Shown: positions 43 to 30,617, counted from the stretch's first letter. The stretch is DNA of 64,000 bases from an uncultured Bacillota bacterium (GCA_902491575.1 CABUID010000004.1:2627-66626), one strand, 5' to 3'. Notes: generated by a model not told the origin, from the letters alone. Numbers and translations: made by a program.

Positions 43-1524
43 TTGATATCCTTTAATGTCAAGCAAGATAATGATCCGTCTACAAAAGGTAAAGTTGAAA
101 AGATAGTTGATTTTGCGAAACATCAATTTTTGGATGGGAGAATTTATTATGGCTTAGATAGATTAAATCAAGAATTTATTGATTGGCTTGCTCATGAAGG
201 AAACGGAATGATTAATGATACGACCAAAAAGTCTCCTCGTGAATTATTCAAAAAGAGTAAACAAGATATAAAAAAGTTGCTCACTTATATTGATAAAAAT
301 TGCTCAAAATGCGGAGCGGTTTGTATAGAAGGGCCAAAATGGTGCGGTAAAACTTGGACTTCTGCGTTTCACTCTAATAGTGAGTTTTTAGTTGGCGATC
401 CTATGAATAACTTTTCAAATAGACAGCTTGCGGAATTAAATCCTTCTTTAATTTTACAGTGGGAAACGCCTCGTATGATTGATGAATGGCAAGAAGTTCC
501 ATCTATTTGGGATGCAACACGTGCTGAGGTGGATAAGCGCCATAAAAAAGGGCAAATAATTTTAACAGGTTCATCCACTCCTAAAACAAAAGGTATTATG
601 CATACTGGTTCTGGAAGAATTGTCAGACTTCGAATGAATACGATGTCATTATACGAATCAGGTGATTCATCAGGAAAAGTAAGTTTAAAAGAACTTTGTA
701 ATAACAATTTGACTATGCAAATGCTTGAAGAGGTCTCTCTTGAAAAACTTGCGACTTATATTGTTCGTGGTGGTTGGCCAGAAAACATTTCAGTAGATGA
801 CAGAAAAGCTCACTTGATGCCAAGAGCATATATGGAAAATGTCATAAGTGAGGATTTGAATAACCTTGATGATGGTATAGAATATGATAAGCACAAAACT
901 GCGTTGCTTCTTAGGTCACTTGCAAGAAATGAATCTACAACTGTATCAGATTCCTCTTTGCTGAAAGATATCATAGAAAAGGATAATGAATCAATGAGTA
1001 GAAACACGATTGCAAAATATCTTGATGCCTTAAGTCGTTTGTTTATCTTTAATAATCAAATGCCTTTTTCTCCAAATCTTCGTTCATCATTAAGAGTAAA
1101 ACAATCAGAAAAAAGACATTTTTCAGATCCCGCAATGGCTTGTGCTTTATTAAATATTACACCTGAAAAATTACTCGGAGATTTAAACACTTTTGGTTTT
1201 TTGTTTGAAGGATTGGTAGAACGTGATTTATCTATTTATGCTCAATCTTTCGGTGCAAAATTATTCCATTATCAAGATTATAAAGGGAATGAAATTGATG
1301 CTGTTATTGAACTTGAAAATGGCGATTGGTGTGCATTTGAAATAAAACTTGGAGCAAAGAAAATTGATGAAGGAGCTGAAAACTTGATTAAAGTTTGCAA
1401 GAATATTGAAGACAACGGAGGGAAAGCCCCTAAAATTAAGTGCGTAATATGTGGCCTTTCAAATGCAGCATATCAAAGACTTGATGGTGTTTTTGTTGTC
1501 CCCATTACTGCTTTAAAGAACTAG
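43..1524 (+). CDS. AAA ATPase of the AAA_14/DUF4143 family. The probable true start is the ATG at 208. The first ~55 codons of the ORF resemble an IS21 IstA transposase fragment read in frame.
   Basis: P-loop 'GPKWCGKTW'; 'ILTGSS...GRI' AAA_14 core; C-terminal 'YQDYKGNEIDAVIELENGDWCAFEIK' DUF4143-type nuclease-like fold. N-terminal 'LNQEFIDWLAHEGNGMINDTTKKSPRELF' resembles the IstA 'LN..WL..aNqRvHgTT..P.erF' region. The window edge prevents seeing the upstream part. Confidence 0.6.
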   Translation: MISFNVKQDNDPSTKGKVEKIVDFAKHQFLDGRIYYGLDRLNQEFIDWLAHEGNGMINDTTKKSPRELFKKSKQDIKKLLTYIDKNCSKCGAVCIEGPKWCGKTWTSAFHSNSEFLVGDPMNNFSNRQLAELNPSLILQWETPRMIDEWQEVPSIWDATRAEVDKRHKKGQIILTGSSTPKTKGIMHTGSGRIVRLRMNTMSLYESGDSSGKVSLKELCNNNLTMQMLEEVSLEKLATYIVRGGWPENISVDDRKAHLMPRAYMENVISEDLNNLDDGIEYDKHKTALLLRSLARNESTTVSDSSLLKDIIEKDNESMSRNTIAKYLDALSRLFIFNNQMPFSPNLRSSLRVKQSEKRHFSDPAMACALLNITPEKLLGDLNTFGFLFEGLVERDLSIYAQSFGAKLFHYQDYKGNEIDAVIELENGDWCAFEIKLGAKKIDEGAENLIKVCKNIEDNGGKAPKIKCVICGLSNAAYQRLDGVFVVPITALKN

Positions 1525-2500: not shown

Positions 2501-3547
2501 ATGAGAGATTTCAATTATTCGTTAATTAGTAAAAACACATGGGATTCAGAGGTATTAGGTTATATAGCTGCTATATATAAAGAAGTTGGAAAGCAAGAAA
2601 TGTATTTAAAACAAAGATCTGAAGAATTAGAAAAACTAGTTGAAATAGCTAAAATTCAAAGTACAGAAGCTTCAAACGCTATTGAAGGTATAGTTACAAC
2701 TAATACAAGAATTAAGCAATTAGTTGAAGAAAAAACAACTCCTAAAAATAGGGCTGAAGAAGAAATTGCTGGATATCGTGACGTATTAAATATAATACAC
2801 GAAAGTTTTGATGCAATTCCATTAACTCAAAATTTTATATTACAACTTCATAAGATTGTGTATAGTCATATGAATAACCCTATGGCAGGTAGAACTAAGA
2901 ATGTTCAAAATTATATATCTGCTACATATTCTGATAGTAAAGTTGAAGTATTATTCCCACCTCTTGATCCATTTGAAACACCAGCAGTACTTGATAGAAT
3001 TTGTGAAGAATACAATAGAGTGATAGGGAATAATGAATTAGAACCATTAATTGCTATACCAGTGTTTATTCATGATTTTTTATGTATTCACCCATTTAAT
3101 GATGGAAATGGTAGAATGTCTAGATTGTTGACAACATTATTGTTGTATAGGAATGGATTCTATGTTGGTAAATTTATTTCATTAGAAGCTAAGATAGCAA
3201 AACATAAGGATTTATATTATGATGCACTAGGCGCTTCACAAGAAGGGTGGACAAAGGGAAATGATAATCCTGTTCCATTTATTAAGTACTTATTAAGTAC
3301 AATTCTTGCTGCATATAAAGACTTTGAAGATAGATTTAAAATTATTGAAGAAAAACTACCTGTTATAGATACAGTAAGAAAAGCAGTGAATAATAAAATA
3401 GGATGGTTTACAAAACAAGATATAAGAGAATTATGCCCATCAATTAGCGTTAGTTCAATAGAAGGAGCATTAAGAAAATTAATTGAACTTGGTGAAATAA
3501 GACGTGAAGGCAATGGAAAGAATAACAAATATGTCAGATTAAAATAA
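2501..3547 (+). CDS. Fic family protein (class II, AMPylation-competent motif) with a C-terminal winged-helix domain.
   Basis: Canonical Fic motif 'HPFNDGNGRMSRLL' (HxFx[D/E]GNGRxxR). N-terminal inhibitory-helix motif 'SNAIEG' ([S/T]xxxE[G/N]). SD-like 'GAGGTGAAAAT' before the ATG. Confidence 0.85.
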   Translation: MRDFNYSLISKNTWDSEVLGYIAAIYKEVGKQEMYLKQRSEELEKLVEIAKIQSTEASNAIEGIVTTNTRIKQLVEEKTTPKNRAEEEIAGYRDVLNIIHESFDAIPLTQNFILQLHKIVYSHMNNPMAGRTKNVQNYISATYSDSKVEVLFPPLDPFETPAVLDRICEEYNRVIGNNELEPLIAIPVFIHDFLCIHPFNDGNGRMSRLLTTLLLYRNGFYVGKFISLEAKIAKHKDLYYDALGASQEGWTKGNDNPVPFIKYLLSTILAAYKDFEDRFKIIEEKLPVIDTVRKAVNNKIGWFTKQDIRELCPSISVSSIEGALRKLIELGEIRREGNGKNNKYVRLK

Positions 3548-4391
3548 ACTTTCCCTTAGGTTGCATATTAAATTAAGGGGAATGCCTAAAAATAAGATTA
3601 AGCATCTATCATAATGGTAGGTGCTTTTTGCTGAGGGTGCATGTATCAAATAGACTTACCTTACACATTAAAAAATATATAGGTTTATACAAAGAAAATT
3701 GAGTAGATTTTTAAGTGTCAAACTTTTCGTATACTAAAACTAGGAGTTAATCTCTTGGTTTTTTTATTTTAAATACTATGTATAATAGTAATGAAGGAAT
3801 GTTTATATAAAATATTAGGGCGTTTAACGCCCCTGCAAAAACCTTTACAGCTAGACTGTTATTAAGATCATTCCTTCACTATAGAAATAAGTTAACTGAG
3901 AGAATCTTTGACTCCCAACTTTTTCTTTTATGTAGGCATAGATTTAAGAAAAGGTTTTGAAACTATGTGATCAAGCTGTGAGCAAAAGATCTGTGAAGAA
4001 ATAATCTATGGTGATAAAGTTCATTACAAATGTGAAGAATCAGACGATATCGATAAAATGATTAAGTAAATCTAATGAATTAAGATGAAGGTGTTATTCA
4101 TAAGGAGTAGCACTTTTTCTTTTATATTATTTGAAAGAAAAATCATAAAAAAGTTTTAATTACCAAAATTAATATAAAAGTATATTGGTAAAATTTAGAA
4201 ACTATGATAGACTTTAGTTAGAAGTTAAACATTATAAATATCTAAAAAGGGAGGGAGCACCTATGGTTTTGAATATTCGTAGGTTAGTATATCAAATTTT
4301 TTGTGCACTCCTTTTGAGTATTTTTCTTTTTAATTAATGCACAAAAACTGCTTAATTAATTGCATTATTTATCAAATGGAGAAAATTTAAT

Positions 4392-4826
4392 ATGAAAAAA
4401 ATAAAAAAATTACTTTGTTTATTTTGCAATTTGCTAGTGTTTTCTAGCTGTACAGTTGTCAATAATAAAAGTAACACAAGTATTAGTCAAGAAAAAGTAA
4501 ATATTCATTTTATTCAATATGATTTACAACAGTTTTATTTTAATGAAAAATCAGGATTTTGGGGTTATGATAAAATCTTATGGGATATAAAAGTTGAATA
4601 TGATTATAATTATTTTTTAACATATAATGAAGCTGAAAATATGATGGAAAAAAGTAATAAGTATATTCCACCTTTAAATGGGGATGGGTATTGGTCCTTT
4701 ACAAGATTATATACATCTAAAAATTTAAGAGATGATGAGCGTGGAATACACTTAGAATTTAGTAATCAATTTAATGATTGTTATTTAACACAGGATATGG
4801 AATTATATTATGGAATTTATGGATAG
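4392..4826 (+). CDS. Small lipoprotein (hypothetical).
   Basis: Signal peptide with lipobox 'LVFSSC'. Its stop lies 10 nt before the next gene, so the two are co-transcribed. Confidence 0.5.
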   Translation: MKKIKKLLCLFCNLLVFSSCTVVNNKSNTSISQEKVNIHFIQYDLQQFYFNEKSGFWGYDKILWDIKVEYDYNYFLTYNEAENMMEKSNKYIPPLNGDGYWSFTRLYTSKNLRDDERGIHLEFSNQFNDCYLTQDMELYYGIYG

Positions 4827-4835
4827 GAGAAAGAA

Positions 4836-6581
4836 ATGAAAAAAGAAATTTTATTATTAACTATATTATTAACATGCTCAATATGTACCTTAGGAAAAAA
4901 CAATAAAACTAACTTTATTGCTGAAAATAACTTTGAAAAATCATTTCAATATGATGATGGATTATACTATGCAGTAGAACCTAGTAATAGTGGTTTTAGT
5001 AAAGAAATCTATGATAATTCTTATAAAGAGTTTATTCAACCAAGACAAGTTATTCAACCAGAAACTCCAAAAACTGAAGATATTTATATTGCAAATCCAT
5101 CTTTTATGTACAAATATTACAAGAATTTAGGAGACAATATTTTAACAAATCATTTAGGAATATGTGGATATACTGCCATTGCAATGTTCTTGTCTTATTA
5201 CGATACTTATTGGAACGATGATTTTATATTAGAAAACTATGATTCTGATCAAACAAGGATTACTGAATCAACATTTAATAATTATAATCATCAATCACCA
5301 GGTGTCAAAAATACTTTATCAACTTCGCCATATATTTCTACTTTGAAAAATAAAATTAAAAAAACCGGAATAACGGATGAAGATTCTATTGAATTTAAGG
5401 AAGCCTTAGATCGTGAAATAATGACAGTAGTAAAAAAAGAAATAGATAATGATAGTTTTGCAGGAAAATTATTCTCAATTGGTATTGCGAATGGTTCAAT
5501 AACTCCCCACTATAATCTTGAAGAGTATAAATACTCTGTTGAACAACCTGATAACAGCAATATTGCAAATGAAGGTTATCTAAGTGGAATTGGTGTAAAT
5601 AATGGTATTATGAATAATGTGCTATCAGATTATATTAATAAAAATGAAAGAATTAATGGAAAAGTAAGTATTGTAACATCCAAATTAGAAAATGATAGTG
5701 CTTCAGAAAAAAATAGAATTCGTAATGAAATTGTTAACTTAGTAAAGGCGGGAAAGCCAGTCTTAATGGGTGGAGATGGGTTTGATGATAAAAATAATAA
5801 TGGAATTCAAGACAATTATGGAGAAAATGACCCAAGAAATGAAAATGGCTTTGGACATGTTGTTATAGCTTATTACTATGATATAACAACCGATACTTTA
5901 TATGGTAATATGGGATGGGGTTCTTCACAATCATTTAGAAATTTGGATGAATATTTTAATATACAAATGTCAGATTATTGGAGCTTAAATATATCAGAAG
6001 ATTTGCCACAATCCTATACAAACAATTATTATTTTACTGATAAAAACACAATTTATTGTCCTTATAAAAATAGCAAATACAATACATTAGCACCTATTGA
6101 ATATGAGTTTCCAGAAAGTTATGGAAAAGGACTTTCTATATCATCAACAATTTCACTCCCAAATTCTAATGATACTGTGGATATCGCTTTCAATAGATTT
6201 AGAACAGGCTATATTGAAAAAGAATGTATTAATCTATCACCTAGATTATTAAATGAAGGAACTGCATATTTAGAATATAAATTTTCTAAAAAAGTTAAAA
6301 GAATAAATGTTGATTTATCTTTTTGGAGTTCAACCGAATTTATTACAAGCAAAGATTCAGAGTATTTAATTCAATACTCAATAGACGGAGTTTGGTTTAC
6401 AACTAAAAATTTATGGACAGATGTAAATCTATCCAAAGATAGAAAAAAACCTACTAACGTTGAAGTAGAATTTCCTGAAAGTATTTCAAATTTTAGATTT
6501 TATGCTAAAACTGAGCCAATTGGTGATAGAAATAAAGGGAGACTCTCAATTTTCGATATGCGAATTGTTTACGATAATTAA
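4836..6581 (+). CDS. Secreted papain-fold putative cysteine peptidase (Peptidase_C39_2 / YvpB-BtrH-like) with a C-terminal beta-rich domain.
   Basis: Signal peptide 'MKKEILLLTILLTCSICTLG'. Cys motif 'NHLGICGYTAIAMFLSYYD' and His motif 'GFGHVVIAYYYD'. An N/D-rich insert lies between the catalytic residues. Confidence 0.5.
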   Translation: MKKEILLLTILLTCSICTLGKNNKTNFIAENNFEKSFQYDDGLYYAVEPSNSGFSKEIYDNSYKEFIQPRQVIQPETPKTEDIYIANPSFMYKYYKNLGDNILTNHLGICGYTAIAMFLSYYDTYWNDDFILENYDSDQTRITESTFNNYNHQSPGVKNTLSTSPYISTLKNKIKKTGITDEDSIEFKEALDREIMTVVKKEIDNDSFAGKLFSIGIANGSITPHYNLEEYKYSVEQPDNSNIANEGYLSGIGVNNGIMNNVLSDYINKNERINGKVSIVTSKLENDSASEKNRIRNEIVNLVKAGKPVLMGGDGFDDKNNNGIQDNYGENDPRNENGFGHVVIAYYYDITTDTLYGNMGWGSSQSFRNLDEYFNIQMSDYWSLNISEDLPQSYTNNYYFTDKNTIYCPYKNSKYNTLAPIEYEFPESYGKGLSISSTISLPNSNDTVDIAFNRFRTGYIEKECINLSPRLLNEGTAYLEYKFSKKVKRINVDLSFWSSTEFITSKDSEYLIQYSIDGVWFTTKNLWTDVNLSKDRKKPTNVEVEFPESISNFRFYAKTEPIGDRNKGRLSIFDMRIVYDN

Positions 6582-6598
6582 CAAAATTTAGTTTTAAA

Positions 6599-6632
6599 GG
6601 CTCACATGAAAATGTGGGCTTTTCTTTTACTT
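6599..6632 (+). terminator. Rho-independent terminator after the peptidase gene.
   Basis: 'GGCTCACATgaaaATGTGGGC' stem (one G-U pair) followed by 'TTTTCTTTT'. Confidence 0.5.
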
Positions 6633-7415
6633 AAAATACTTTGGTAAATGACTTGATAAATTTTTGCGTTAGAGTGATTAATTACACGAACTAATTTCAG
6701 TTCAGGAAAAATCATTCTTGATAGTATTCATTAGTTAAAAATTTGTTTTACTATACGCCAAGAAATGCGAATTCTAGAAGAAAATCAAAATACAGAATTG
6801 TAAATTTTCGCTATGATGTTAGTTTTAAATGAAGAAAAAAGTATGGGAAAGGTTAGAGCGGAATTAAGTAGATGAATAAAAATAAAAATCAAAAACTCAG
6901 CGTTGAAGAAAAAAATTTATTCAAAAGGAACAAGAATAGAACTTGTAAAAATTGTCTTATGTAGGTTGTAGTATAGCTGATTATGACGAAGAAGTAGGAG
7001 AAAGTGATTTTAGAGTGGCTGCAAGTAATTCCATCTTGTCGTGGACGTGGATACGGATAATATATTGTAAATCATTTGCTTTCACATTCACAAGTGCGAG
7101 CGATATTTACAACTGTGTTAGGCAAAGTAAATAACAAGATGCACCTTGAAAAAATGCATCACAAGTGTGGCTTTAATGGTAACGATGTTTGGCATGTTTT
7201 ATTGAGAAGTGATTAAATCATCTAAATTAATAAGTATTACTATTTGCATCTTATTTAGTATTTAATATGTAAACAACCTTCTGTAAAAGTTGAATATTTG
7301 CACATTTTATGATAAAATATATGTAAATAAAATAAAAAGTAGGCAAATAGGAAGAGATATGATTACAAATTTTTAAAGAATATAATGGTGCTATCATTAC
7401 TTTTAATGTATAAAA

Positions 7416-7808
7416 ATGATTGATATTTCAAAATATGTTTCTTTTGAAGAACAAATCAATTTATCAAAAGGAAATTATTATGAGTCTTTAAAATTATCAT
7501 CTATTGGTTGGCATGAAAACAATAATGATTATATTCCATTTATAGAAAACTTTCTTTTTACATTATATCTATGTTACAAAGAACTAGATAAGCGTTTTTT
7601 AACTCTTAAGAGTGGAAAAGTTAGTAAGACAAAAAGAATTGAAGAAACTATAATGGCTTCATTTTTACCAATTTCAAAAAAAGAAATAGAAAACTTGTTA
7701 CCAGATATTTCTATAACGACAATTGAAAAAGTATTATCAATTAAGCTAAAAGAAGGAAAAATCAAGAAAATTGGCACAACAAATAATGCTAAATATATAA
7801 AAAAATAG
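7416..7808 (+). pseudogene. N-terminally truncated Fic-family remnant (C-terminal winged-helix portion only).
   Basis: Its 130 aa align with residues ~215-348 of the Fic at 2501-3547 ('YIPFIENF' vs 'VPFIKYL'; '...NNAKYIKK' vs '...NNKYVRLK'). Just upstream, out of frame, 'LSLLLMYKND' matches 'LTTLLLYRNGF'. The HPFxxGNGR motif is absent. Confidence 0.5.
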
Positions 7809-17482: not shown

Positions 17483-17578
17483 TTTTAAACCTCCTTAATA
17501 TTAATATTGTACATGATTTATTATTATATTTTAAGTTTTTTTTTATTTTCATAAAATACTGTTATTATTTAAACAAAA

Positions 17579-18595
17579 TTAAATAATAGAATTAAATATT
17601 TCTTTTAATTTAGTTTGCTGACCAATATTACTTGAGTTTAATTCATCAAATGATTCTTCCAAAATCATATTGTTTGGCTTTTTTATTAACATTTTAATTT
17701 TCATAGAAATTTCTTGTATACTTTTCACATCGAAAATTATATAAGATGGTTTTAAATTTTTAAAAAGATCTTTACATCCTGTATTATTTGACATTAACAA
17801 ACTACATCCTGAGTAAAATGCTTCTATTAATGCAATGCCAAATGATTCAAACGTACTGTTTTGAATGTAAATATTTGATTCATTTAAATTTGCAATAAAC
17901 TCATTGTGTGAGATTTGACCCATCCATTTTACAAAATTATATGTTTTAATTTCTTTATCTTTATTACCATTTGAACCAAAAACACGATATTCAATATTAA
18001 ATCCTTCTTGAATTAATTTTTCAATTGCTTTCGCTACAAATAAATTATTTTTTATATCACTACCTCCGCCTGCAGATGAAATAATAATTCTTTCATTGTC
18101 CTTATAATGAATTTTATTTTCTATTTTTTTTAAATTAATGGTATGATAAATATAATCAAATTTATTTGCATAAATTGCATAATTTTCTTTCATAAATTCA
18201 GAAAAAAATTTTGAAACACAAATGATTTTAGTTGATTTTTTTAAAATATAATTATCATATTTTTTTGCAGCTTTTGCAATCTCAATTGGCATGTCATTCC
18301 ATTGCGCTTCAAGTGATGGACATCCATGCATCAAGTAAATAATAGGCTTTCTTAATATTTTTGCGCATCTAAAGGCGAAAAAATTTATTCTAGATTTTGA
18401 ACAAACAAATAAAGCATCACAATTAATTATTTTAAAGAAACAATCTATAACTCTTTTTAAAAGATTTTTATTTTTACTTTTTTTAACAATAAAGTTTGAA
18501 TTTAAATTATTAAAAATTATTCTATTCGCATTAGCTGGTCCTGTATTCGATTCAAAATCACCTAACATATAAATTTTTTTCATTTTGGTTTTCAT
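17579..18595 (-). CDS. Glycosyltransferase family 1 (GT-B fold).
   Basis: C-terminal 'ESFGIALIEAFYSGCSLLMSNNTG' is the GT1/GT4 EX7E-like region. Confidence 0.65.
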   Translation of the reverse strand: MKTKMKKIYMLGDFESNTGPANANRIIFNNLNSNFIVKKSKNKNLLKRVIDCFFKIINCDALFVCSKSRINFFAFRCAKILRKPIIYLMHGCPSLEAQWNDMPIEIAKAAKKYDNYILKKSTKIICVSKFFSEFMKENYAIYANKFDYIYHTINLKKIENKIHYKDNERIIISSAGGGSDIKNNLFVAKAIEKLIQEGFNIEYRVFGSNGNKDKEIKTYNFVKWMGQISHNEFIANLNESNIYIQNSTFESFGIALIEAFYSGCSLLMSNNTGCKDLFKNLKPSYIIFDVKSIQEISMKIKMLIKKPNNMILEESFDELNSSNIGQQTKLKEIFNSII

Positions 18596-18633
18596 CTCCT
18601 CAACATTTTATTTTAAAAATTAATATAATTTTT

Positions 18634-20148
18634 TCATTTTTTAATAAATGTTATATAAAAGTTATGAATATTTTCTCTGTTAAGGATGAATTCAATAACT
18701 GCAACGATGACGAGTGAAATGCCAGTAACTTCTAATGCATTTATTATCCATCCACCATAACTAGTTGTTGAAATAGTCATCCAACTTGTCGATAGAACAA
18801 TTAAAAAAATAATAATTATATCTACAAAACATTGTTTTAAAAACAATGTAAATTTTCTATTTAAGATGTTTTTATGCAAATAAATTGTTTCATAAATTAC
18901 AAAGAATACAGTAGAAACGATAGTTCCAATTGCAACACCCACTAAACCATAATTAAAAACTAATACCACTGAAATTAAAACATTTAAAATTGTTTCTATT
19001 AATGATGCTTTTTGTGTTTGTTTATAATGTCCTGCTGCTTTTATTAATGTAAAATATCCATTTCGAATCAAATTCATAAAACCTGCTATTATGATTAAAA
19101 TTGCAAATAAAGGAACATTATAATTTGCATCTTCAATTCCATTTGTATAAATTAATACAAATGGAACAATTAAAATACCAGTAATTGTAAATAGCATTAC
19201 TCCTATTGTGTGCAAAAACCATTCAAAAGTATTAAAAGTAGAATTTAAATAGTTCATTTCTTTTTTGGCAATGATATTACCAAATGTAGCTAAAAAACCA
19301 TTAGTTAATGAGTTAATCATTGTTTTTATACTATTCACTACTAAAAAATAAATATTATATATTGCTACATTTGCAAGTGAAGATAAACATGTCAACACAA
19401 TAACATCGGTATTTTCATACACCATATAAGATATATGTTGAATAATTCCATTGCTTTTTTGAGGTAAACACGCAAAATCTGGTTTAATTTTTTTATCTAA
19501 TTTATAATGTTTTCTTACATATAATGCCATCAAAAGAGGTCTAAAAAGATAAATAATAGATGTCGATAACTTAACCAATTGAATATTACATCCATTAATC
19601 ATTAATAACACACATAATAAAGTATTTATTAATAATGTAAGACCATTTATTATATATTGAATATAAGATTTTTGATCTGCATTGATAAGAATTTGATAGC
19701 TTATACCTAAAAAATATTGAGAAAACTGAGAAATGCACATTGCTAAAATTAAAGAAACAGTAAACCAAAGGTCAAATTCATTAGCAACAATATTCGGATA
19801 AACAAAAATCAATATAACAACATATGCCACTAATATATAACTTACAACTCTAAAATATTTTTTAGCTGTAAAATAGATTCTAGATACTTCATTAGTATTG
19901 TCATCTGCTAATGGCTTGTATAATGCAGAAGAAACTACTGCTCCTATTCCTAAGTCACATATATTAATAAAAGATAAAAATTGAGTAATGGATGAAACTA
20001 ATCCATAAACACTAGAACCATAATAACGCAAAAAAAACTTAGGCAATATAAATCCACTAATTATTAATATAACTTGATAAGTTAATCCAAATATGGAACT
20101 TAATTTTAATTTTTTGATTCTATCATTACTTTGCATTTTTTTCACCAC
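18634..20148 (-). CDS. wzx: Oligosaccharide flippase (Wzx, MOP superfamily).
   Basis: 504 aa with about 12-14 TM helices; matches the polysaccharide biosynthesis protein family pattern. Confidence 0.7.
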   Translation of the reverse strand: MVKKMQSNDRIKKLKLSSIFGLTYQVILIISGFILPKFFLRYYGSSVYGLVSSITQFLSFINICDLGIGAVVSSALYKPLADDNTNEVSRIYFTAKKYFRVVSYILVAYVVILIFVYPNIVANEFDLWFTVSLILAMCISQFSQYFLGISYQILINADQKSYIQYIINGLTLLINTLLCVLLMINGCNIQLVKLSTSIIYLFRPLLMALYVRKHYKLDKKIKPDFACLPQKSNGIIQHISYMVYENTDVIVLTCLSSLANVAIYNIYFLVVNSIKTMINSLTNGFLATFGNIIAKKEMNYLNSTFNTFEWFLHTIGVMLFTITGILIVPFVLIYTNGIEDANYNVPLFAILIIIAGFMNLIRNGYFTLIKAAGHYKQTQKASLIETILNVLISVVLVFNYGLVGVAIGTIVSTVFFVIYETIYLHKNILNRKFTLFLKQCFVDIIIIFLIVLSTSWMTISTTSYGGWIINALEVTGISLVIVAVIEFILNRENIHNFYITFIKK

Positions 20149-20478
20149 TTAAAATTTTCACAAAATACAATCTAAATATCGATATTTTATTTCATCTAAA
20201 GAATTATTTTGATTACTGTATTTAATTTATCAACTTTTGAAATAAATCCTTTAAAAACAATAGCCTTATCTGAAATAGTCAGTATAAAAATTTTAATCTC
20301 TTTCATATTATTCTATTTACTGAGTAGTATAATATAAAAAGAAAAAGTCGAAAGAAATAAAAGATGATTCAACTTTTACGATTTTTATACCACATTTTTA
20401 TTATATCATATTAGCCAAAAATATAAACACATGATTAAACTGTTATGTTCTTTCAAAAAATTCTTACATCATCTTTTT

Positions 20479-21624
20479 TCATAATTGCTTTTTTAATTCA
20501 ATAGAATATTTACAGGCAATGCTTAATATAATTATAACTAAAAATCCATTTATTGTAGATTCTGTTAAACCATTTATAAGAAGTATACACAACGCAATAA
20601 ATATAATCTTATGTCTATTGTCTTTAAAATCCAAATTTTTTATAGTTTTAAAAAATAAAATAGCAAAAAGCACTAAAGCGATAATTCCTCCTTCCATAAG
20701 AATTTCTAGAATGAAATTATGCGCTTCATAAATAGTTTGTTTTACTCCCCATGTATTAACATAAGATAACTCAACGCCTCGACCAGCACCAATAAACCAG
20801 TTATCCTTAATTAATTCTTCAGCAAGTTTCCAAATAGTTGTTCTTGAAGTTAATGTAGCATCTTTTCCTATAAAATTAGTAAATTTTTGCCAAAATTCTG
20901 TAAGCAAAAAAGAGTCCATAAATAAAAGAAATAAAGCATAAACTGTAAAAATAATTCCTAAATATAAACCTTTTTTAGGTTTAAACTTAATACTTAAAAG
21001 TAATAATAGTATTGTACATGAAGCAACAACTATTCCTGTTCCACTTGAGCCAATAAAAATAGTTAGTAAACTACTGATTACGACTATCACTGCAAATTTG
21101 CTTAATTTACCATATTTTTCAAATGAATTAATAATTACTAAAAATAAGCCTGGAATTAAAAATATACCTAACGCATTTTTTCCACCGATAAAATATTCAG
21201 TATTCACTGAATTTCTATTTATCAACATAACCAAAAAATTGATAACTAATGTGGCAATAATAATAATAAAAACCGCGCTTAACATGTCATCATAATAATC
21301 TGTTTGAAGCAAAGTAAATATTAAAACAGAAGCGACAATAACTGTAATAATACCAGGACTAATACCATTATTAAATATGCTACTAAAAAGAATTATAAAC
21401 TGGTATATGCCAAAAATTCCTATCGACCAATTTAATTTTATTTTCGTTGCTTTCATAATTAATAATATTAAAAGTATAGCTACCGATATGATTTGCCATG
21501 CCTGATAGATATTTGAACTTATTATATTTTTAATTCCTGAAAGACTTAAAAAAGGTATAATCAAAAAAATAAATAATAATATTATGAAATAATTACTTTT
21601 TCTTTTTACTTTTTCCATAATCAA
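20479..21624 (-). CDS. wzy: O-antigen ligase/Wzy-type polysaccharide polymerase.
   Basis: Polytopic membrane protein with a large periplasmic loop ('EAHNFILEILMEGG'), lying in the cps operon. Confidence 0.55.
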   Translation of the reverse strand: MIMEKVKRKSNYFIILLFIFLIIPFLSLSGIKNIISSNIYQAWQIISVAILLILLIMKATKIKLNWSIGIFGIYQFIILFSSIFNNGISPGIITVIVASVLIFTLLQTDYYDDMLSAVFIIIIATLVINFLVMLINRNSVNTEYFIGGKNALGIFLIPGLFLVIINSFEKYGKLSKFAVIVVISSLLTIFIGSSGTGIVVASCTILLLLLSIKFKPKKGLYLGIIFTVYALFLLFMDSFLLTEFWQKFTNFIGKDATLTSRTTIWKLAEELIKDNWFIGAGRGVELSYVNTWGVKQTIYEAHNFILEILMEGGIIALVLFAILFFKTIKNLDFKDNRHKIIFIALCILLINGLTESTINGFLVIIILSIACKYSIELKKQL

Positions 21625-22517
21625 TTACCTTTAGTCCTTTTTTTCAATTTTGTTTTCATAACTTGTCTTATTCTAAAATACCCTATCCCAAGGATAAAAT
21701 ATATTTGATTAATATTTAATAAACTAGCTGACTCCCTTATTTTTAACCCTTTGAGTTTTGAAACATAATAAAATTCACCACATTTGTTTAAGGAAGGAAA
21801 AAACGAGTGAGTTTCCAAAAATAATTTAGAACAATAAATAAATCCTAAAAAATTATTTGCATAAGTATTTTCATTAGTTTGTTTAGTTAATCCATCTTCT
21901 TTATATTCACATATATAAATTACTTCATTATACCATCTTATCTTAAGTCCATCTTTTGCAATACGATCCCAAACAGCAGATTCTCTTATAAAGTTTTCAT
22001 TTTCAAATTCAGGAAACGGATATTGTTTTAATACATCTGTTTTGTATATCTCTGCTTTATCCCCAAGTAAATTATATTTTTTCCTTTCCAAATTTGTGGC
22101 ATCAATGAAATATGATTGCGGTGAACCTCCAATTGTAGTATTCCCGTCAGCCTTTAACCCTGCAACTCCAGCAAATCCTTCCAATCCAGAAATATCTAAA
22201 ATCCATTCATGAACTTTTTCCACAGCATTTTCTGTAAGTTGATCGTCGCTATCAAGAATTAATAAATAATCATAATTTGCTAATGAGACAGCTCTATTTA
22301 CTGCGCGATGTTTTCCGCCATTTTTTTGTTTTTCATAAATAATAGAAAAATTATGTTCTTCTTTTAACCATTGTTTTACAATAGTTTCTGTTTCATCTGT
22401 CGACCCATCATCAATAATTATCCATTCAAAGTCTAGCAACGTCTGCTTTTTTAATGATTGATATGCTTTAGACAAAATATATGCCCTATTATATGTTGGC
22501 GTCACTATAGTAATCAT
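21621..22517 (-). CDS. Glycosyltransferase family 2.
   Basis: 'ITIVTPTYNRAYIL...IIDDGSTDETETIV...ILDSDDQL' shows DxD and GT-A signatures. Confidence 0.75.
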   Translation of the reverse strand: MITIVTPTYNRAYILSKAYQSLKKQTLLDFEWIIIDDGSTDETETIVKQWLKEEHNFSIIYEKQKNGGKHRAVNRAVSLANYDYLLILDSDDQLTENAVEKVHEWILDISGLEGFAGVAGLKADGNTTIGGSPQSYFIDATNLERKKYNLLGDKAEIYKTDVLKQYPFPEFENENFIRESAVWDRIAKDGLKIRWYNEVIYICEYKEDGLTKQTNENTYANNFLGFIYCSKLFLETHSFFPSLNKCGEFYYVSKLKGLKIRESASLLNINQIYFILGIGYFRIRQVMKTKLKKRTKGN

Positions 22518-22603
22518 ATCTTTTTACCTTACTTTCTATTTAAACCATAATAAATTTTTTTTGAACTGTTTATTACAAATATAGTTTGTTTTTTCTATGG
22601 TTT

Positions 22604-23401
22604 TCATATATTTATCCCCTTTGATTTTTTTAAATATTTCATTTTCCCTGCTTTCATTAACTTAATAGCTTTTATTGTCGATATATTTTCTTTATATAAA
22701 CTTCTTTTTCTTATTGCCCATTGACATATTAATAAAATAGTAAATGGTGTTTTCATTGCCGCAAATGATGCTCCCTTACCAATGAAATATTTTTCATTTC
22801 TCTTTGTAAACCAAGTTGAATCTCCTATATGCAAATCAGCAATTTCTTTTGGAATATAAAAAATTTTTAACTTTTTACGCAAGCATTGGAATAACAAAGC
22901 ATTTTCTTCTCCCATCATAAATTCTGTTCCTGCACCAATAACTTCATCAAATTGTATATTTTTTTCTACAAAACTAGTTCTTTTAAATGCAAGTTCTACC
23001 GATGCCATTTTCATTGAATTTAAATATTTTATTCTTTTTGCCTTTGTTGAATAATCTTTAAACTTTTTTTCTATTCCACATACTTGAAAACCTATAATAT
23101 CCACATTAAATTTTGAAAAAGCTGTTAAAACTATATTTACATAATTACTTCGATATTCCATATCATCATCCGCAAGCATACAAATATCTGCAGTAGCATT
23201 GCGAATTGCCATGTTTCTACTTTTACTTAATCCTCTTTCAGTTGTATCTATCCACAAAATAGTATGGTTATTATATTTAATTGATTCAATTTTTTCTTTA
23301 TTGCATTGATTGATTACTACCGCATCAGATGAGATTTTCATTTTTTTTAGCAGCGAATGATCTATTTGATTCATCGTTGAAATAAGAAGTTGTAAAGTCA
23401 T
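22604..23401 (-). CDS. GT-A fold glycosyltransferase-like protein.
   Basis: 'ICMLADDDMEY' is a DxD-like motif. The stop overlaps the upstream GT4 gene by 4 nt. Confidence 0.45.
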   Translation of the reverse strand: MTLQLLISTMNQIDHSLLKKMKISSDAVVINQCNKEKIESIKYNNHTILWIDTTERGLSKSRNMAIRNATADICMLADDDMEYRSNYVNIVLTAFSKFNVDIIGFQVCGIEKKFKDYSTKAKRIKYLNSMKMASVELAFKRTSFVEKNIQFDEVIGAGTEFMMGEENALLFQCLRKKLKIFYIPKEIADLHIGDSTWFTKRNEKYFIGKGASFAAMKTPFTILLICQWAIRKRSLYKENISTIKAIKLMKAGKMKYLKKSKGINI

Positions 23402-24600
23402 TGCACTTCACCTGCTATCATATTAATAATTTCTTGGTATGTTTTACTTCTGTCAAATCTTTCCTCTGCTAATCTTCGACTATTCATCCCCATTCGCTGA
23501 CGCGTTATCTCGTTTTCTATAAGAAAACGAATAGCTTTTGCCAATGATTGGACATCACCCGGGAAACACATCAAACCCGCATCATATTGTCTTAACAATT
23601 CTCCAAATTCTTGATTTTTTTGAACATTAATTATTGGAAGTGCTGCTGATACATAATCAGCATGTTTATTTATTATGCTCCCTGTTGCTTTGCCAACAAG
23701 GACATTAATTCCTATATCACATTTTACAAGGATCTTAATCATATTTTCATAAGTCAATCTACCAGTAAAGCGAACAGGGAGATGATTTTGCTTTGCATAA
23801 ATTTCAAATTTTTCTTTCATGGGACCATCTCCCATAATTAATAACTCTACTTTATCACAACCTTGTGTTATTAATAATTTCATTGCATCCATAACACCAC
23901 ATAAGTCATAGCTATGTCCAAGCATTCCTATATAGGCCATTGTAATAGGACGTAGTTTCCCTTTTAATGGTAACGCAGTTTTAGCTATTCTATCAAAATA
24001 ATTAATATCTGTACCAATAAATACGCTATGTCCCTTTATCATCTTAGAATTATTTTGTGTTGCTCTTTGAACATATGAATTTGAAACGGCAACTACCTCA
24101 CTTGCATTAAGATATGCAAAATCAATTTCTTTTTTCATTGGATACAATAATATTTTTGAAATAAAATTTGGCAAAAATATTTCAAATGCTTCTGGCCAAA
24201 GATCTAAAATATCAATTATTATACGAATATTGTTCTTTCTTGCAAACTTAACAACTTTTTTTGCCAAAAATGTAGGTGGGACAAATAGATAAATTACATC
24301 TGGCTTTGTTTGCTTTTTAAGATATTTAATGACATTTTTAGCAAAATGGCGATGAGCAAACAAACGCGAAAGTGAAATATTTTTTCTATAGGTTCCTTCC
24401 TCAAGCAAGGTCGCTTTGTAAGAAATATCCCTTAATACTTCAATTTCACTTCTTTGTTTTTTCGCGGTATGATAAAATTTTGAAGTAATCACTTCCACAG
24501 ATATTCCTTTTTTAACCGCAAGCGTTGCTATTGTATGATAACGACTACTTGTTTTTTCAACTGGAAAATGCCAATAATTAGATATAATAATTGCTTTCAA
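23398..24600 (-). CDS. Glycosyltransferase family 4 (GT-B fold).
   Basis: 'ISLSRLFAHRHF...' N-terminal domain plus C-terminal 'GDGPMKEKF...' GT1-type domain; 400 aa. Confidence 0.7.
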   Translation of the reverse strand: MKAIIISNYWHFPVEKTSSRYHTIATLAVKKGISVEVITSKFYHTAKKQRSEIEVLRDISYKATLLEEGTYRKNISLSRLFAHRHFAKNVIKYLKKQTKPDVIYLFVPPTFLAKKVVKFARKNNIRIIIDILDLWPEAFEIFLPNFISKILLYPMKKEIDFAYLNASEVVAVSNSYVQRATQNNSKMIKGHSVFIGTDINYFDRIAKTALPLKGKLRPITMAYIGMLGHSYDLCGVMDAMKLLITQGCDKVELLIMGDGPMKEKFEIYAKQNHLPVRFTGRLTYENMIKILVKCDIGINVLVGKATGSIINKHADYVSAALPIINVQKNQEFGELLRQYDAGLMCFPGDVQSLAKAIRFLIENEITRQRMGMNSRRLAEERFDRSKTYQEIINMIAGEVQ

Positions 24601-24604
24601 AATA

Positions 24605-25609
24605 TCACACTCCTAACAAATATTTTAATGGTTTCTTAATTTTCTTAAAAGGCAAAGCTCTTAAGACAATTAAAATAATAACTGGAATTAAATAACCCAA
24701 TATACTCATTGCAATTGCAGTAATTGCTACACTTAAATTCAAAAGTTGATAGAATAAAATGCGAACTAAAATCATTATAGGCCAATGCATAATATATATG
24801 CCAAATGAGAATGATGCAAGTTTTTCAAAAAATGGTGACAAAGATTCAATGGATGTAGAAATAGAAAGAAATGTCATTAAAATAAAAATACAAGGAATGA
24901 AATGTAATGGTTTTGTTTGCTCATACCAAATTAATGAAATAATAGAAAAAAGAATTGCACCACATATAAATCCTAATCGAAATCTTTTCATCACTATAAT
25001 AAATTTGTCACTTCTCATTTGCCCCAATAAACAACCAATAACGAAGAAAAGTAAATCCTTGTGCAAATCACTTAAAGCTAAAAACTCAGTATTTATAGGC
25101 AATATATAAAGGAAAATACAAAATACTATTGCAATTGTTGAAATCCACACTTTTTTTGTTTCAAATAGTTTTTGGAATAAAGGAGTAGCCAAATAAACTA
25201 TAAACAATGCTACCAAAAACCATGTATGTCCCCAAACGTTTTGGCGTGGAAAAACAAAAGCTTTTAATATATCTAATACATTGAATGACACTTTATCTGA
25301 AAGATAATCTTGAAATAAAAATTTAGGTACCCAAAAAATTATGTTCCAAATAAAATAAGGAAGTAATAGACGTTTTGACTTATTAAAAATAAATTTAATA
25401 TATGATTTTTCTCCTTGATATCCTTTAAATGATAATAAATACCCACTAATCAAAAAGAATAAAGGCATATGAAAAATATAAATCCACTCTTTTGAAAAGA
25501 TATACCAAGCACCTGTTGATTGAAGGCCATTTAATGAATGTCCTAACACAACAAAAATGGGACCTATAATTTGTAATAGACTTATATATGTAATTCTTTT
25601 ATTCTCCAT
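24605..25609 (-). CDS. Acyltransferase family 3 (membrane O-acyltransferase).
   Basis: 'ISLLQIIGPIFVVLGHS' N-terminal motif; ten predicted TM helices. Confidence 0.6.
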   Translation of the reverse strand: MENKRITYISLLQIIGPIFVVLGHSLNGLQSTGAWYIFSKEWIYIFHMPLFFLISGYLLSFKGYQGEKSYIKFIFNKSKRLLLPYFIWNIIFWVPKFLFQDYLSDKVSFNVLDILKAFVFPRQNVWGHTWFLVALFIVYLATPLFQKLFETKKVWISTIAIVFCIFLYILPINTEFLALSDLHKDLLFFVIGCLLGQMRSDKFIIVMKRFRLGFICGAILFSIISLIWYEQTKPLHFIPCIFILMTFLSISTSIESLSPFFEKLASFSFGIYIMHWPIMILVRILFYQLLNLSVAITAIAMSILGYLIPVIILIVLRALPFKKIKKPLKYLLGV

Positions 25610-26636
25610 ATTCTATCAAAGCCTTCCTTATGTTATTTTTTTCAAATAAAATAGTCAATTCATTAATTGTTTCACATGTTAATTCTACACTTTTTCCATT
25701 GCACATTTCACTTTTTTTGTTTCCTATTTCTCCAGGATAAAACACTTTCCCAGAAGCATGTACCTCATCTATATATTCATCCATTTGTTTATAAAATGAA
25801 TCTCCTAAAATTATCGACGGATTAATAGCTATAAAGGACTGTCCAACATTCATACATTTATTGTCATCTGAATAAAATCTATTTATATGATTCAAATAAC
25901 CTGCACCTGACAAAACTCCAGAAAGAATATCTATTGCCATAGCGATGGCATATCCTTTATGTTCAGCCATAGGCAAAATCATACCTTTAATTGCTTTTTC
26001 TGGGTCTGTTGTAGGATGTCCGTTTTCATCAACAGCCCACCCAATTGGTATTTTACCACCTTGTTTACGAATTTCATTTATTTTAGATTTGGCTACAATA
26101 CTCGTTGCCATGTCAATTAATATAGGGCTGTTCTTATCAGCAGGAATACCAATAGCAAAGGGGTTTGTTCCTAAAATTTTTATATTACCTCCCCAAGCAG
26201 GCATTGCTGAAGGGCTATTAGATAAGCATATTCCTATCATTTTTTGTGTTGTGGCCTTTTTAACATATCTAAAAGCTGCTCCAAATGTATTTGCATTACG
26301 GCAAAACACTGTATAAATGCCTGTTTGAAGAGCTTTTTCTAACGCAATTTCCATACATCTATCTGCAGAAACTACTCCTATTTGATTATTTGCATCTAAA
26401 ATTGTAAAAGATGGAGTCTGTCTTAAAATTATACTCTCCTCAGTCAAATTAAAGCCTTTATTTTGAATTTTTTTTATATACACAGGAAAAATAGATACGC
26501 CATGTGTGTGTACACCTCGCATATCTGCTTCAAGCATAGAATCAACTAAAGTTTCAGCTTGTTTTTCACTAACTTTATTTTTTTTTAATATTTCAATTAA
26601 AGCACTCTTTAATTCAATGATGGAATATCTTTTCAT
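25599..26636 (-). CDS. Ldh_2 family (malate/L-sulfolactate dehydrogenase-type) NAD(P)H-dependent 2-oxoacid oxidoreductase.
   Basis: 'MRGVHTHGV', 'LGTNPFAIGIP' and 'HKGYAIAMAIDILSGVLSG' are typical of PF02615. SD 'GAGGAAAA' precedes the ATG. Confidence 0.7.
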   Translation of the reverse strand: MKRYSIIELKSALIEILKKNKVSEKQAETLVDSMLEADMRGVHTHGVSIFPVYIKKIQNKGFNLTEESIILRQTPSFTILDANNQIGVVSADRCMEIALEKALQTGIYTVFCRNANTFGAAFRYVKKATTQKMIGICLSNSPSAMPAWGGNIKILGTNPFAIGIPADKNSPILIDMATSIVAKSKINEIRKQGGKIPIGWAVDENGHPTTDPEKAIKGMILPMAEHKGYAIAMAIDILSGVLSGAGYLNHINRFYSDDNKCMNVGQSFIAINPSIILGDSFYKQMDEYIDEVHASGKVFYPGEIGNKKSEMCNGKSVELTCETINELTILFEKNNIRKALIEYGE

Positions 26637-26642
26637 TTTTCC

Positions 26643-28161: not shown

Positions 28162-28519
28162 CGTATCACGTCCTATCTTCAAAATAATGTGTGTTATATT
28201 CAAAAGTAAAATTTTACTAAACATTTTTCAAAATATACTGAAAAAAGTTATCTTGACAAATATTTTTCTTCCTATATTCTTTCTGCTTGTATGACTTACC
28301 TATTATACTAATAGGTATATTTAGACTTTAATAGTATGGCATATTTATTGGAATAATTCAATTACAATTAAATATAAGTTTGTATTTATCGTAATTATAA
28401 GAAAAAATCGATTTCAATGCAACCTACAAATGTAATTTAATTATGTAGATAATAGAAATGTATAAATCTTATTTCATCTATTACAATTATTTCACTTTAT
28501 GGAAAATATAAGTATCATT

Positions 28520-30460: not shown

Positions 30461-30617
30461 AACACTATTAATAAGTTAATAAATATTATTAACTTTTATT
30501 AATCATATCATAGAATCGTGTTAGATACAATTTAAATAATTTGGAAAACTACGTAATCCGAATATTTATAATCACTTTTATGAATGAAAGCGTTAACAAA
30601 AAAACTTAGACCATTGT

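What the first reader, a model, noticed from the sequence alone, without database searches (positions are those of the whole stretch)
4392..6581. Lipoprotein plus large secreted C39-like cysteine peptidase pair
The 581-aa secreted protein carries a Peptidase_C39_2-like Cys motif ('GICGYTAIAMFLSYYD') and a His motif ('GFGHVVIAYYYD'). The two are separated by an unusually long Asn/Asp-rich insert and followed by a C-terminal beta-rich domain of about 200 aa. The co-transcribed small lipoprotein could be a cognate inhibitor or immunity/anchor partner, analogous to staphostatin-staphopain pairs. Function is unknown.
Basis: partly seen in the sequence, partly recalled or inferred. Interest (0 to 1): 0.5.

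Follow-up and report, generated by a model that had tools for sequence, protein, structure and literature searches.

The report
Secreted cysteine peptidase with lipoprotein partner
A two-gene operon of a low-GC gut bacterium encodes an exported papain-type cysteine peptidase with a ligand-binding tail, next to a small fast-evolving membrane lipoprotein; the pairing recurs across many uncultured gut Bacilli, but the lipoprotein's role (probably an inhibitor or immunity partner) is only inferred.

Summary
ORFs 4392-4826 (144 aa, lipobox Cys20) and 4836-6581 (581 aa) lie 9 nt apart, each with its own RBS, between terminator-like hairpins.

The 581-aa protein is an exported clan-CA peptidase.
- Cys110 and His341 are kept in 183/184 and 197/197 family representatives. 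Asn105, Asn/His358 and Trp361 are also conserved.
- Its last ~185 aa form a CBM/discoidin-like beta-sandwich with no Pfam model.
- It scores just below the cut-offs of Pfam Peptidase_C39_2 and NCBIfam Mplas_Cys_pep.
- The "long Asn/Asp insert" is mostly a folded helical subdomain plus a short DxNxNGxxD calcium-type loop.

The pairing is real. An adjacent same-strand lipoprotein occurs in at least 33 of 48 loci, with lipoboxes in 36/60 adjacent ORFs against 25/218 other ORFs. Flanking genes differ between loci. Partner and peptidase co-diverge (r = 0.93). The partner evolves faster (dN/dS 0.27-0.77 against 0.08-0.18).

The staphostatin analogy is only organisational. The lipoprotein model is beta-grasp-like, not a lipocalin barrel, and it is extracytoplasmic. 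The nearest precedent is Bfp/Bfi of Bacteroides fragilis.

The substrate (protein or cell wall) and the partner's role remain untested. I rate it a new variant of a known kind, of moderate interest.

The parts
4087..4117 (+). Terminator-like hairpin ending the upstream transcription unit; marks the probable 5' limit of the operon.
   Evidence: 13-pair stem followed by a T-run. The region holds 6 such sites, against 0.7 expected from shuffles.
4392..4826 (+). Gene for a 144-aa lipoprotein (family 'LP-A'). It has a signal peptide and lipobox VFSS|C20 (Cys codon 4449-4451), an Asn/Ser-rich tether of about 12 aa, and a beta-grasp-like domain of about 110 aa. Conserved residues are Q42, G99-Y100, T104 and the C-terminal G144.
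4825..4829 (+). AGGAG ribosome-binding site of the peptidase gene. It overlaps the lipoprotein stop codon and lies 6 nt before the ATG.
   Evidence: sequence read directly.
4836..6581 (+). Gene for the 581-aa exported cysteine peptidase.
4836..5069 (+). Signal peptide (aa 1 to about 20, with a possible lipobox LLT|C14) and a low-confidence linker (aa 14-78). The linker holds the conserved short motif D-x-G-x-[FY]-Y-x-T-x-P (aa 41-50). There is no folded prodomain.
   Evidence: pLDDT below 50 for residues 14-78; consensus; lipobox in 8 of 37 close homologues and 14 of 168 overall; a signal-like N-terminus in 150 of 168.
5070..6026 (+). Papain-fold catalytic domain (aa 79-397).
- Asn105: oxyanion-hole candidate.
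- Cys110: at the N-terminus of helix 110-125.
- Asp123: invariant, role unknown.
- His341: in strand 338-349.
- Asn358-x-Gly-Trp361: equivalent to papain's Asn-Ser-Trp.
- A helical and alpha/beta subdomain (aa 160-316) lies between Cys and His.
5787..5813 (+). D318-K-N-N-N-G-I-Q-D326, a DxNxNGxxD loop of the calcium-binding (DxDxDG) type, 15 residues before the catalytic His. It is specific to this subfamily.
   Evidence: D318, N320, N322, D326 invariant among 25 close homologues; the loop is present in about one third of the wider family. Calcium binding is inferred from the motif only.
6027..6578 (+). C-terminal beta-sandwich (jelly-roll, galactose-binding-domain-like) module, aa 398-581. 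Signature residues are R454, R456, G458, S468, N566 and R569. It is the probable ligand- or target-binding domain.
6596..6623 (+). Terminator-like hairpin 15 nt after the peptidase stop codon; probable 3' end of the operon.
   Evidence: 12-pair stem followed by a T-run.

Best explanation
This is a self-contained two-gene operon that recurs in uncultured low-GC gut and rumen Bacilli (Erysipelotrichaceae-like and 'Bacilli bacterium' MAGs).

Gene 2 encodes a Sec-exported clan-CA (papain-fold) cysteine peptidase. The proposed active site is Cys110 as nucleophile, His341 as base, Asn358 as orienting residue (shielded by Trp361), and Asn105 in the oxyanion hole. The protein has no folded prodomain. 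It carries a subfamily-specific calcium-type loop next to the His strand. A C-terminal CBM/discoidin-like beta-sandwich most likely docks the enzyme onto a glycan or protein ligand.

Gene 1 encodes a small lipoprotein held at the outer face of the membrane by a short tether. Its beta-grasp-like domain most likely binds the peptidase and blocks it. This would protect the producer's own surface, in the manner of an inhibitor or immunity protein, until the enzyme is released or meets its target.

Shown: gene structure, export signals, fold, conservation of the catalytic residues, conserved adjacency, co-divergence, and faster evolution of the partner.

Inferred: catalytic activity, calcium binding, ligand binding by the C-terminal domain, physical interaction between the two proteins, and inhibition.
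For: Peptidase:
- C110, H341, N105 and D123 are kept in at least 99% of 204 representatives. Position 358 is N or H, and W361 is conserved.
- Cys110 caps helix 110-125 and His341 sits in a strand, as in papain.
- PF13529 is hit by 29 of 46 relatives and NF045837 by 40 of 46.
- The C-terminal sandwich is shown.

Pair:
- 9-nt gap, separate RBS, flanking terminator-like hairpins.
- Adjacent same-strand ORFs carry a lipobox in 36 of 60 cases, against 25 of 218 other ORFs in the same loci (Fisher p = 9e-14). At least 33 of 48 loci have such a neighbour.
- Flanking genes differ in every locus.
- Identities of the LP-A partner and its peptidase correlate at r = 0.93.
- dN/dS is 0.27-0.77 for the partner and 0.08-0.18 for the enzyme.
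- Different peptidase subfamilies carry lipoproteins with no detectable sequence similarity to one another, on either side of the peptidase gene. This pattern is typical of inhibitor and immunity genes.

Export and anchoring:
- Most peptidases have a signal-like N-terminus (150 of 168), but few have their own lipobox (14 of 168). No prodomain is modelled.

Precedent: the B. fragilis Bfp C10 proteases have co-transcribed 116-138-aa Bfi partners, two of which are predicted lipoproteins (PMC2873492).
Against: - No test of binding or inhibition was possible. No complex could be modelled and no natural fusion was found.
- r = 0.93 can arise from simple co-inheritance.
- About 30% of loci show no adjacent lipoprotein under my heuristic.
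- The window protein scores below the curated cut-offs of both PF13529 and NF045837.
Confidence: 0.45

Rival explanations
1. Cell-wall lytic enzyme with an immunity lipoprotein. The C39_2-like domain cleaves peptidoglycan stem peptides or cross-bridges, either as an autolysin or as an antibacterial bacteriolysin. The C-terminal sandwich serves as the cell-wall-binding domain. The lipoprotein is the producer's immunity or regulatory protein, as with T6SS Tae/Tai pairs or B. subtilis IseA acting on NlpC/P60 endopeptidases (both recalled from general knowledge). This shares the inhibitor role of the best explanation and differs only in the substrate.
For: - The architecture of a catalytic domain followed by a binding domain is that of lysins.
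- Peptidase_C39_2 is listed among the enzymatically active domains of lysins from phages of Gram-positive hosts (PMC8223927).
- The partners have no detectable sequence similarity to one another, evolve fast, and lie on either side of the peptidase gene.
- The genomic neighbourhoods are variable.
Against: - No PHROG lysin family matches the peptidase or five relatives, and no relative was found in viral contigs.
- The nearest curated family is a Mycoplasma peptidase model, and one locus is from an Anaeroplasmataceae MAG. These lineages are generally wall-less (general knowledge).
Confidence: 0.2
2. Anchor, adaptor or cofactor rather than inhibitor. The lipoprotein tethers the otherwise unanchored secreted peptidase to the cell surface, or presents substrate to it. 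This would resemble binder-plus-protease pairs on Mollicute surfaces (MIB-MIP, recalled from general knowledge).
For: - Only 14 of 168 peptidases have their own lipobox, whereas the partner almost always does.
- The partner's beta-grasp-like fold resembles binding modules such as the InlB B-repeat and staphylokinase, a protease cofactor.
- A conserved short motif in the peptidase's disordered N-terminal linker could be a docking site.
Against: - Where the peptidase has its own lipobox, as in the window (LLTC14), a tether is redundant, yet the partner is retained.
- A near-neutral dN/dS (0.77 for window against L003) is unusual for an obligate structural adaptor.
- All fold matches are weak.
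Confidence: 0.2
3. Maturation factor. The lipoprotein acts as a foldase or an in-trans pro-segment needed to fold or activate a peptidase that lacks a prodomain. Precedents are the PrtM lipoprotein for the lactococcal proteinase PrtP and Lif for lipases (general knowledge).
For: - No folded prodomain is modelled in a papain-fold enzyme.
- The linkage is tight and the upstream position allows translational coupling.
Against: - The partner lies downstream in many subfamilies and belongs to families with no detectable similarity to one another.
- It has no PPIase or other known chaperone domain.
- Its fast evolution does not fit a conserved folding catalyst.
Confidence: 0.08
4. The adjacency has no functional meaning. 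The lipoprotein is an unrelated surface protein that happens to neighbour a secreted peptidase in a variable region.
For: - The lipoprotein families cannot be shown to be homologous to one another.
- My lipobox heuristic has false positives; 11% of background ORFs are flagged.
Against: - Enrichment is about five-fold (60% against 11%, p = 9e-14) across 48 loci whose other flanking genes are unrelated.
- The upstream position with 2-18-nt gaps or short overlaps is kept in all 10 LP-A loci, down to 39% peptidase identity.
Confidence: 0.05

Closest known systems
Bfp C10 cysteine proteases with Bfi partners of Bacteroides fragilis (PMC2873492)
   Same: A papain-fold cysteine protease gene lies within tens of bp of a small co-transcribed gene (116-138 aa). 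Two Bfi proteins and several Bfp proteases are predicted lipoproteins. The organism is a gut commensal. The proposed role of the partner is self-protection.
   Different: - The peptidase family differs (C10/SpeB-like with a prodomain, against C39_2-like without one).
- Bfi proteins were proposed to be staphostatin-like, whereas the partner here models as beta-grasp-like.
- The host is a Gram-negative Bacteroidota.
- There is no C-terminal beta-sandwich.
- Bfi inhibition is itself only predicted in that paper.
Staphopain-staphostatin (C47) and SpeB-Spi (C10) operons
   Same: A secreted clan-CA cysteine protease is co-transcribed with a small specific inhibitor gene (as summarised in PMC2873492).
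   Different: - Staphostatins and Spi act in the cytoplasm and have no signal peptide.
- Staphostatins are lipocalin-like barrels, and Spi is a propeptide analogue.
- The partner here is an exported lipoprotein with a different predicted fold.
Pfam PF13529 Peptidase_C39_2 and NCBIfam NF045837 Mplas_Cys_pep
   Same: Both models give sequence-level matches around the Cys and His motifs. 29 of 46 relatives hit PF13529 and 40 of 46 hit NF045837 at E below 0.01.
   Different: - The window protein scores below both curated cut-offs (22.1 against 24 bits; 24.9 against 45 bits).
- The Cys-His spacing is 231 aa and includes an extra subdomain.
- The third residue is Asn or His in an N-x-G-W context, as in papain, rather than the Asp of classical C39.
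- The C-terminal sandwich is additional.
Family C1 papain-like peptidases (Lpg2622, xylellain, cathepsin B, Der p 1)
   Different: Sequence identity is 9-14%. There is no Pfam C1 hit and no prodomain. The oxyanion residue is Asn rather than Gln.
Calpain (C2)
   Same: A papain-fold core with calcium-type loops is followed by a beta-sandwich domain. m-Calpain was the only protease among the Foldseek PDB hits (E = 1e-4).
   Different: Calpain is cytosolic and eukaryotic, and there is no sequence relationship. The TM-score is low (0.13), so the resemblance is one of architecture only.

Membership tests
Clan CA (papain-fold) cysteine peptidases | Nucleophilic Cys at the N-terminus of a helix and a general-base His on a beta-strand, in that order, both conserved. 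| tested here: met
   Cys110 starts helix 110-125 and His341 lies in strand 338-349. They are kept in 183 of 184 and 197 of 197 representatives.
Clan CA (papain-fold) cysteine peptidases | Overall fold superposes on known members. | tested here: met
Clan CA (papain-fold) cysteine peptidases | Cys-His ion-pair geometry (S-N distance of about 3.5-4 A) and proteolytic activity. | not testable with these tools
   Model coordinates are not exposed, so the distance was not measured. Activity needs an experiment.
Pfam PF13529 Peptidase_C39_2 | Score at or above the gathering threshold (24 bits) over the whole domain model. | tested here: not met
   22.1 bits, covering only model positions 15-85 of 143. 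Relatives P0063 (31.3 bits) and P0035 (25.6 bits) pass, and 29 of 46 relatives hit at E below 0.01. The protein is therefore related to the family but lies at its edge.
NCBIfam NF045837 Mplas_Cys_pep | Score at or above the curated cut-off (45 bits). | tested here: not met
   24.9 bits, residues 224-404 against model positions 78-236 of 240. 40 of 46 relatives hit at E below 0.01, the best at 1.6e-12.
Classical C39 bacteriocin-processing peptidases | N-terminal domain of an ABC exporter, with a Cys/His/Asp triad, cleaving double-glycine leader peptides. | tested here: not met
   The protein stands alone and is exported; no ABC transporter gene is adjacent. PF03412 is hit by only 2 of 46 relatives. 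The third residue is Asn or His. Cleavage specificity was not tested.
Staphostatin-type (lipocalin-like) inhibitors | Cytoplasmic protein forming an eight-stranded beta-barrel. | tested here: not met
Bacterial lipoproteins | Signal peptide with a positively charged N-region, a hydrophobic core and a lipobox Cys. | tested here: met
   MKKIKKLLCLFCNLLVFSS|C20, with the Cys invariant in 9 orthologues. Lipidation itself was not tested.
Galactose-binding-domain-like / CBM beta-sandwich | Jelly-roll fold. | tested here: met
Galactose-binding-domain-like / CBM beta-sandwich | Demonstrated carbohydrate binding, or membership of a sequence family in CAZy or Pfam. | tested here: not met
   No Pfam hit at E up to 1. 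Ligand binding cannot be tested here.

The most novel reading that the evidence does not exclude
The pairs could be a widespread, undescribed effector-immunity system of gut Bacilli. A Sec-secreted papain-fold enzyme would be aimed at the surface of competing bacteria by a new beta-sandwich targeting module. It could act on cell wall or on surface proteins. The fast-evolving, mutually dissimilar lipoproteins would give strain-specific immunity to the producer. This would be a contact-independent, Gram-positive counterpart of the T6SS amidase effector-immunity pairs.
Probability: 0.15. Interest if true: 0.7.

Novelty: new variant of a known kind. Interest (0 to 1): 0.42.

Why it matters
The family is large. 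It has 2012 representatives at 50% identity, 546 of them with E at or below 1e-30. It is confined mostly to uncultured gut and rumen Bacilli and has no characterised member.

If the peptidase degrades host glycoproteins or rival bacteria, it would be a common but unrecognised factor in colonisation or competition. Its lipoprotein partners would then add a new structural class of protease inhibitor or immunity protein.

The C-terminal module has no Pfam model. It also occurs on a subtilase, which marks it as a portable targeting domain worth defining. None of this overturns current understanding; it extends the known theme of a protease gene paired with an adjacent inhibitor gene.

Tried and rejected
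- Sequence searches of the PDB with the peptidase, its profile and the lipoprotein profile found nothing meaningful.
- Foldseek against the PDB returned almost only matches to the C-terminal sandwich.
- The word-index search found only 2 relatives of the lipoprotein, and 5 when queried with a profile.
- No natural lipoprotein-peptidase fusion exists among the 211 retrieved proteins.
- Profile-profile comparison of the LP-A family with 20 other adjacent lipoprotein groups aligned only the signal peptides. One group (B) gave an inconclusive 49% probability over its full length.
- Phage origin is rejected: no relatives in viral contigs and no PHROG hit for the peptidase.
- No Rfam element lies in 3400-7500. 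The promoter scan was no better than shuffled sequence.
- There are no paralogues of either gene elsewhere in the window.
- Literature searches found no paper on this family.
- The first related-loci run with the wide alignment failed for lack of a conserved stretch. A narrower alignment worked.

Full report
**Observation.** ORF 4392-4826 (+) encodes 144 aa and ORF 4836-6581 (+) encodes 581 aa. The quoted motifs are residues 108-123 and 338-349, with Cys110 at nt 5163-5165 and His341 at nt 5856-5858. The small protein begins MKKIKKLLCLFCNLLVFSS|C20, a standard lipoprotein signal. The genes are 9 nt apart. AGGAG overlaps the first stop codon and lies 6 nt before the second ATG. Terminator-like hairpins at 4087-4117 and 6596-6623 bracket the pair; the region holds 6 such sites against 0.7 expected. 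No Rfam element lies in the region.

The window is chromosomal DNA of a bacterium with about 27% GC. It carries DnaB, MnmE, GdpP, ComEC and HolA genes and a surface-polysaccharide cluster at about 17.5-30.5 kb. The pair sits in a variable stretch between a DUF4143 ATPase gene and a Fic gene on one side and a MerR regulator and an aldo-keto reductase gene on the other.

**The peptidase.** Curated models give only borderline hits. Pfam Peptidase_C39_2 scores 22.1 bits against a gathering score of 24 and covers only the Cys half. NCBIfam NF045837 (Mplas_Cys_pep) scores 24.9 bits against a cut-off of 45 and covers the His half. Across 46 relatives, 29 hit PF13529 and 40 hit NF045837 at E below 0.01. 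The protein is therefore a peripheral relative of both families, not a member by their thresholds. No solved structure is related by sequence.

The family is large:
- 71 clusters by word search, all unnamed or 'hypothetical' apart from one 'C39 family peptidase'.
- 2012 representatives at E at or below 1e-3, and 546 at or below 1e-30, by exhaustive HMMER.
- 49 loci in species-representative genomes. Nearly all are MAGs labelled Bacilli, Bacillales, Erysipelotrichaceae or Thomasclavelia, with one Anaeroplasmataceae, from gut or rumen samples. A few titles (E. coli, Phascolarctobacterium) look like mis-binned contigs.

In 204 representatives the putative active site is essentially invariant:
- Cys110 in 183 of 184.
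- His341 in 197 of 197.
- Asn105 in 182 of 184.
- Asp123 in 186 of 188.
- Position 358 is Asn in 96 and His in 95.
- Gly360 in 194 and Trp361 in 156.

I could not measure the Cys-His distance because model coordinates are not exposed.

**The 'insert'.** Cys and His are 231 residues apart. Most of this span is a well-modelled helical and alpha/beta subdomain (helices 167-175, 185-204, 208-218, 256-269 and 289-304; strands 277-283 and 309-316). Only residues 317-337 are Asn/Asp-rich. Within them, D318-x-N-x-N-G-x-x-D326 is invariant in the close subfamily and fits the DxDxDG class of calcium-binding loops (general knowledge). The loop is present in only about a third of the wider family.

Residues 14-78 are modelled as disordered, so there is no folded prodomain. 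A short conserved motif, D-x-G-x-[FY]-Y-x-T-x-P, lies within this linker.

**Export.** 150 of 168 full-length relatives have a signal-like N-terminus, but only 14 have a canonical lipobox. In the close subfamily 8 of 37 do, including the window protein (LLT|C14).

**The lipoprotein and the pairing.** By sequence the small protein has almost no detectable relatives: 2 by single-sequence word search and 5 by profile. It has no Pfam, NCBIfam or PDB match.

Position tells more. In the 8 contexts I inspected by hand, a small same-strand ORF with a lipobox Cys lies next to the peptidase gene, while all other flanking genes differ. Over 48 non-redundant loci, adjacent same-strand ORFs carry a lipobox in 36 of 60 cases, against 25 of 218 other ORFs in the same loci (Fisher p = 9e-14). 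At least 33 loci have such a neighbour, and a few more were missed by the heuristic.

The window-type lipoprotein ('LP-A') has the motifs VTLTFxQH, GDGYWSFT and LHFAIYG. It accompanies only the close peptidase subfamily and always lies upstream, separated by 2-18 nt or overlapping by up to 10 nt. More distant subfamilies carry other lipoproteins with no detectable sequence similarity to LP-A, either upstream or downstream. Profile-profile comparison aligns only their signal peptides, apart from one inconclusive case.

Pairwise identities of LP-A and its peptidase correlate at r = 0.93 over 36 pairs. Mean identity is 34% for the lipoprotein and 51% for the peptidase. dN/dS is 0.27-0.77 for the lipoprotein and 0.08-0.18 for the peptidase.

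**Interpretation.** The peptidase assignment is well supported. The role of the partner is inferred. Several features fit an extracytoplasmic inhibitor or immunity protein best:
- Tight linkage with possible translational coupling.
- Both proteins are exported.
- The enzyme has no prodomain.
- The partner is a fast-evolving, membrane-anchored protein that has been replaced by dissimilar lipoproteins in other subfamilies.

The closest documented precedent is not staphostatin. It is the Bfp/Bfi arrangement of B. fragilis: small co-transcribed genes within 35 bp of C10 protease genes, with Bfi1B, Bfi4 and several Bfp proteins predicted to be lipoproteins (PMC2873492).

The substrate is open. A protein or glycoprotein target is favoured by the C1-like fold matches and the kinship to a Mycoplasma peptidase model. 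A cell-wall target remains possible, because C39_2 domains are listed among the catalytic domains of lysins from phages of Gram-positive hosts (PMC8223927) and the enzyme-plus-binding-domain architecture is lysin-like. Against the cell-wall reading, there is no PHROG or viral-contig relative. Anchor, adaptor and maturation-factor roles for the lipoprotein cannot be excluded.

**Novelty and score.** The catalytic fold, and the theme of a cysteine protease gene with an adjacent small partner gene, are both known. What is new:
- The combination of domains.
- A Pfam-less C-terminal module.
- A Pfam-less, beta-grasp-like lipoprotein partner family.
- The breadth of the pairing across uncultured gut Bacilli.

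I rate it a new variant of a known kind, with interest 0.42.

Noticed in passing
window 43-1524; L027 2450-3739; L059 2439-3740; L001 1-2689: An AAA_14/DUF4143 ATPase gene lies 3 kb upstream of the pair in the window. The same kind of gene lies directly upstream of distant peptidase homologues in two other loci. L001 shows a second copy and a Phage_portal fragment just beyond the window start. This may mark a mobile or variable region.
   Followed up: partly
window 3548-4391: An 843-nt non-coding gap lies between the Fic gene and the lipoprotein gene. It holds three terminator-like hairpins (3736-3762, 3817-3833 on the minus strand, and 4087-4117). It has no Rfam match and no ORF longer than 24 aa lying within it.
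   Followed up: partly
P0057, P0060 (homologues): The C-terminal beta-sandwich module (RLRTGYIE...NLSPRR...RNKGR) also occurs after an S8 subtilase domain and after an unrelated Cys/His-containing N-terminal module. It has no Pfam model.
   Followed up: partly
P0058, P0062; loci L021-L036 (peptidases of about 780 aa): A longer subfamily carries an extra C-terminal domain after the sandwich. The domain has its own conserved Cys and His motifs (NCY[AN]Y ... H[FW]YRQNxDGTWSHK) and may be a second catalytic domain.
   Followed up: no
window 4956-4985 (peptidase aa 41-50): A conserved short linear motif, D-x-G-x-[FY]-Y-x-T-x-P, lies inside the N-terminal linker that AF2 leaves disordered. It could be a docking or autoinhibitory segment.
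   Followed up: no
window 4821-4823 (lipoprotein G144) and all 9 LP-A orthologues: The lipoproteins end in an invariant C-terminal Gly (..YGIYG) on a beta-grasp-like fold. I noted this as a curiosity and do not take it as evidence of ubiquitin-like chemistry.
   Followed up: partly
L033/L034 3457-6635; L047 3013-6722; L010 6841-11569: Some loci depart from the one-to-one pattern. In L033/L034, paralogous lipoproteins flank the peptidase on both sides. In L047, two tandem peptidase paralogues follow one lipoprotein. In L010, a run of ORFs of about 270-300 aa follows the pair, the first of them a lipoprotein.
   Followed up: no
window 17500-30500: A surface-polysaccharide biosynthesis cluster on the minus strand: Wzy-like polymerase, GT1 glycosyltransferases, Acyl_transf_3 and Polysacc_synt_2.
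   Followed up: partly
window 4458-4604 (lipoprotein aa 23-71): A weak match to phrog_21099, of unknown function (E = 7.8e-5). It probably reflects the Asn/Ser-rich composition of this stretch.
   Followed up: no
loci L030, L044, L013, L014: These contigs carry the family but are titled Phascolarctobacterium, Escherichia coli, Lachnospiraceae and Waltera 'cleanbin'. They are probably mis-binned, so their taxonomic labels should not be trusted.
   Followed up: no
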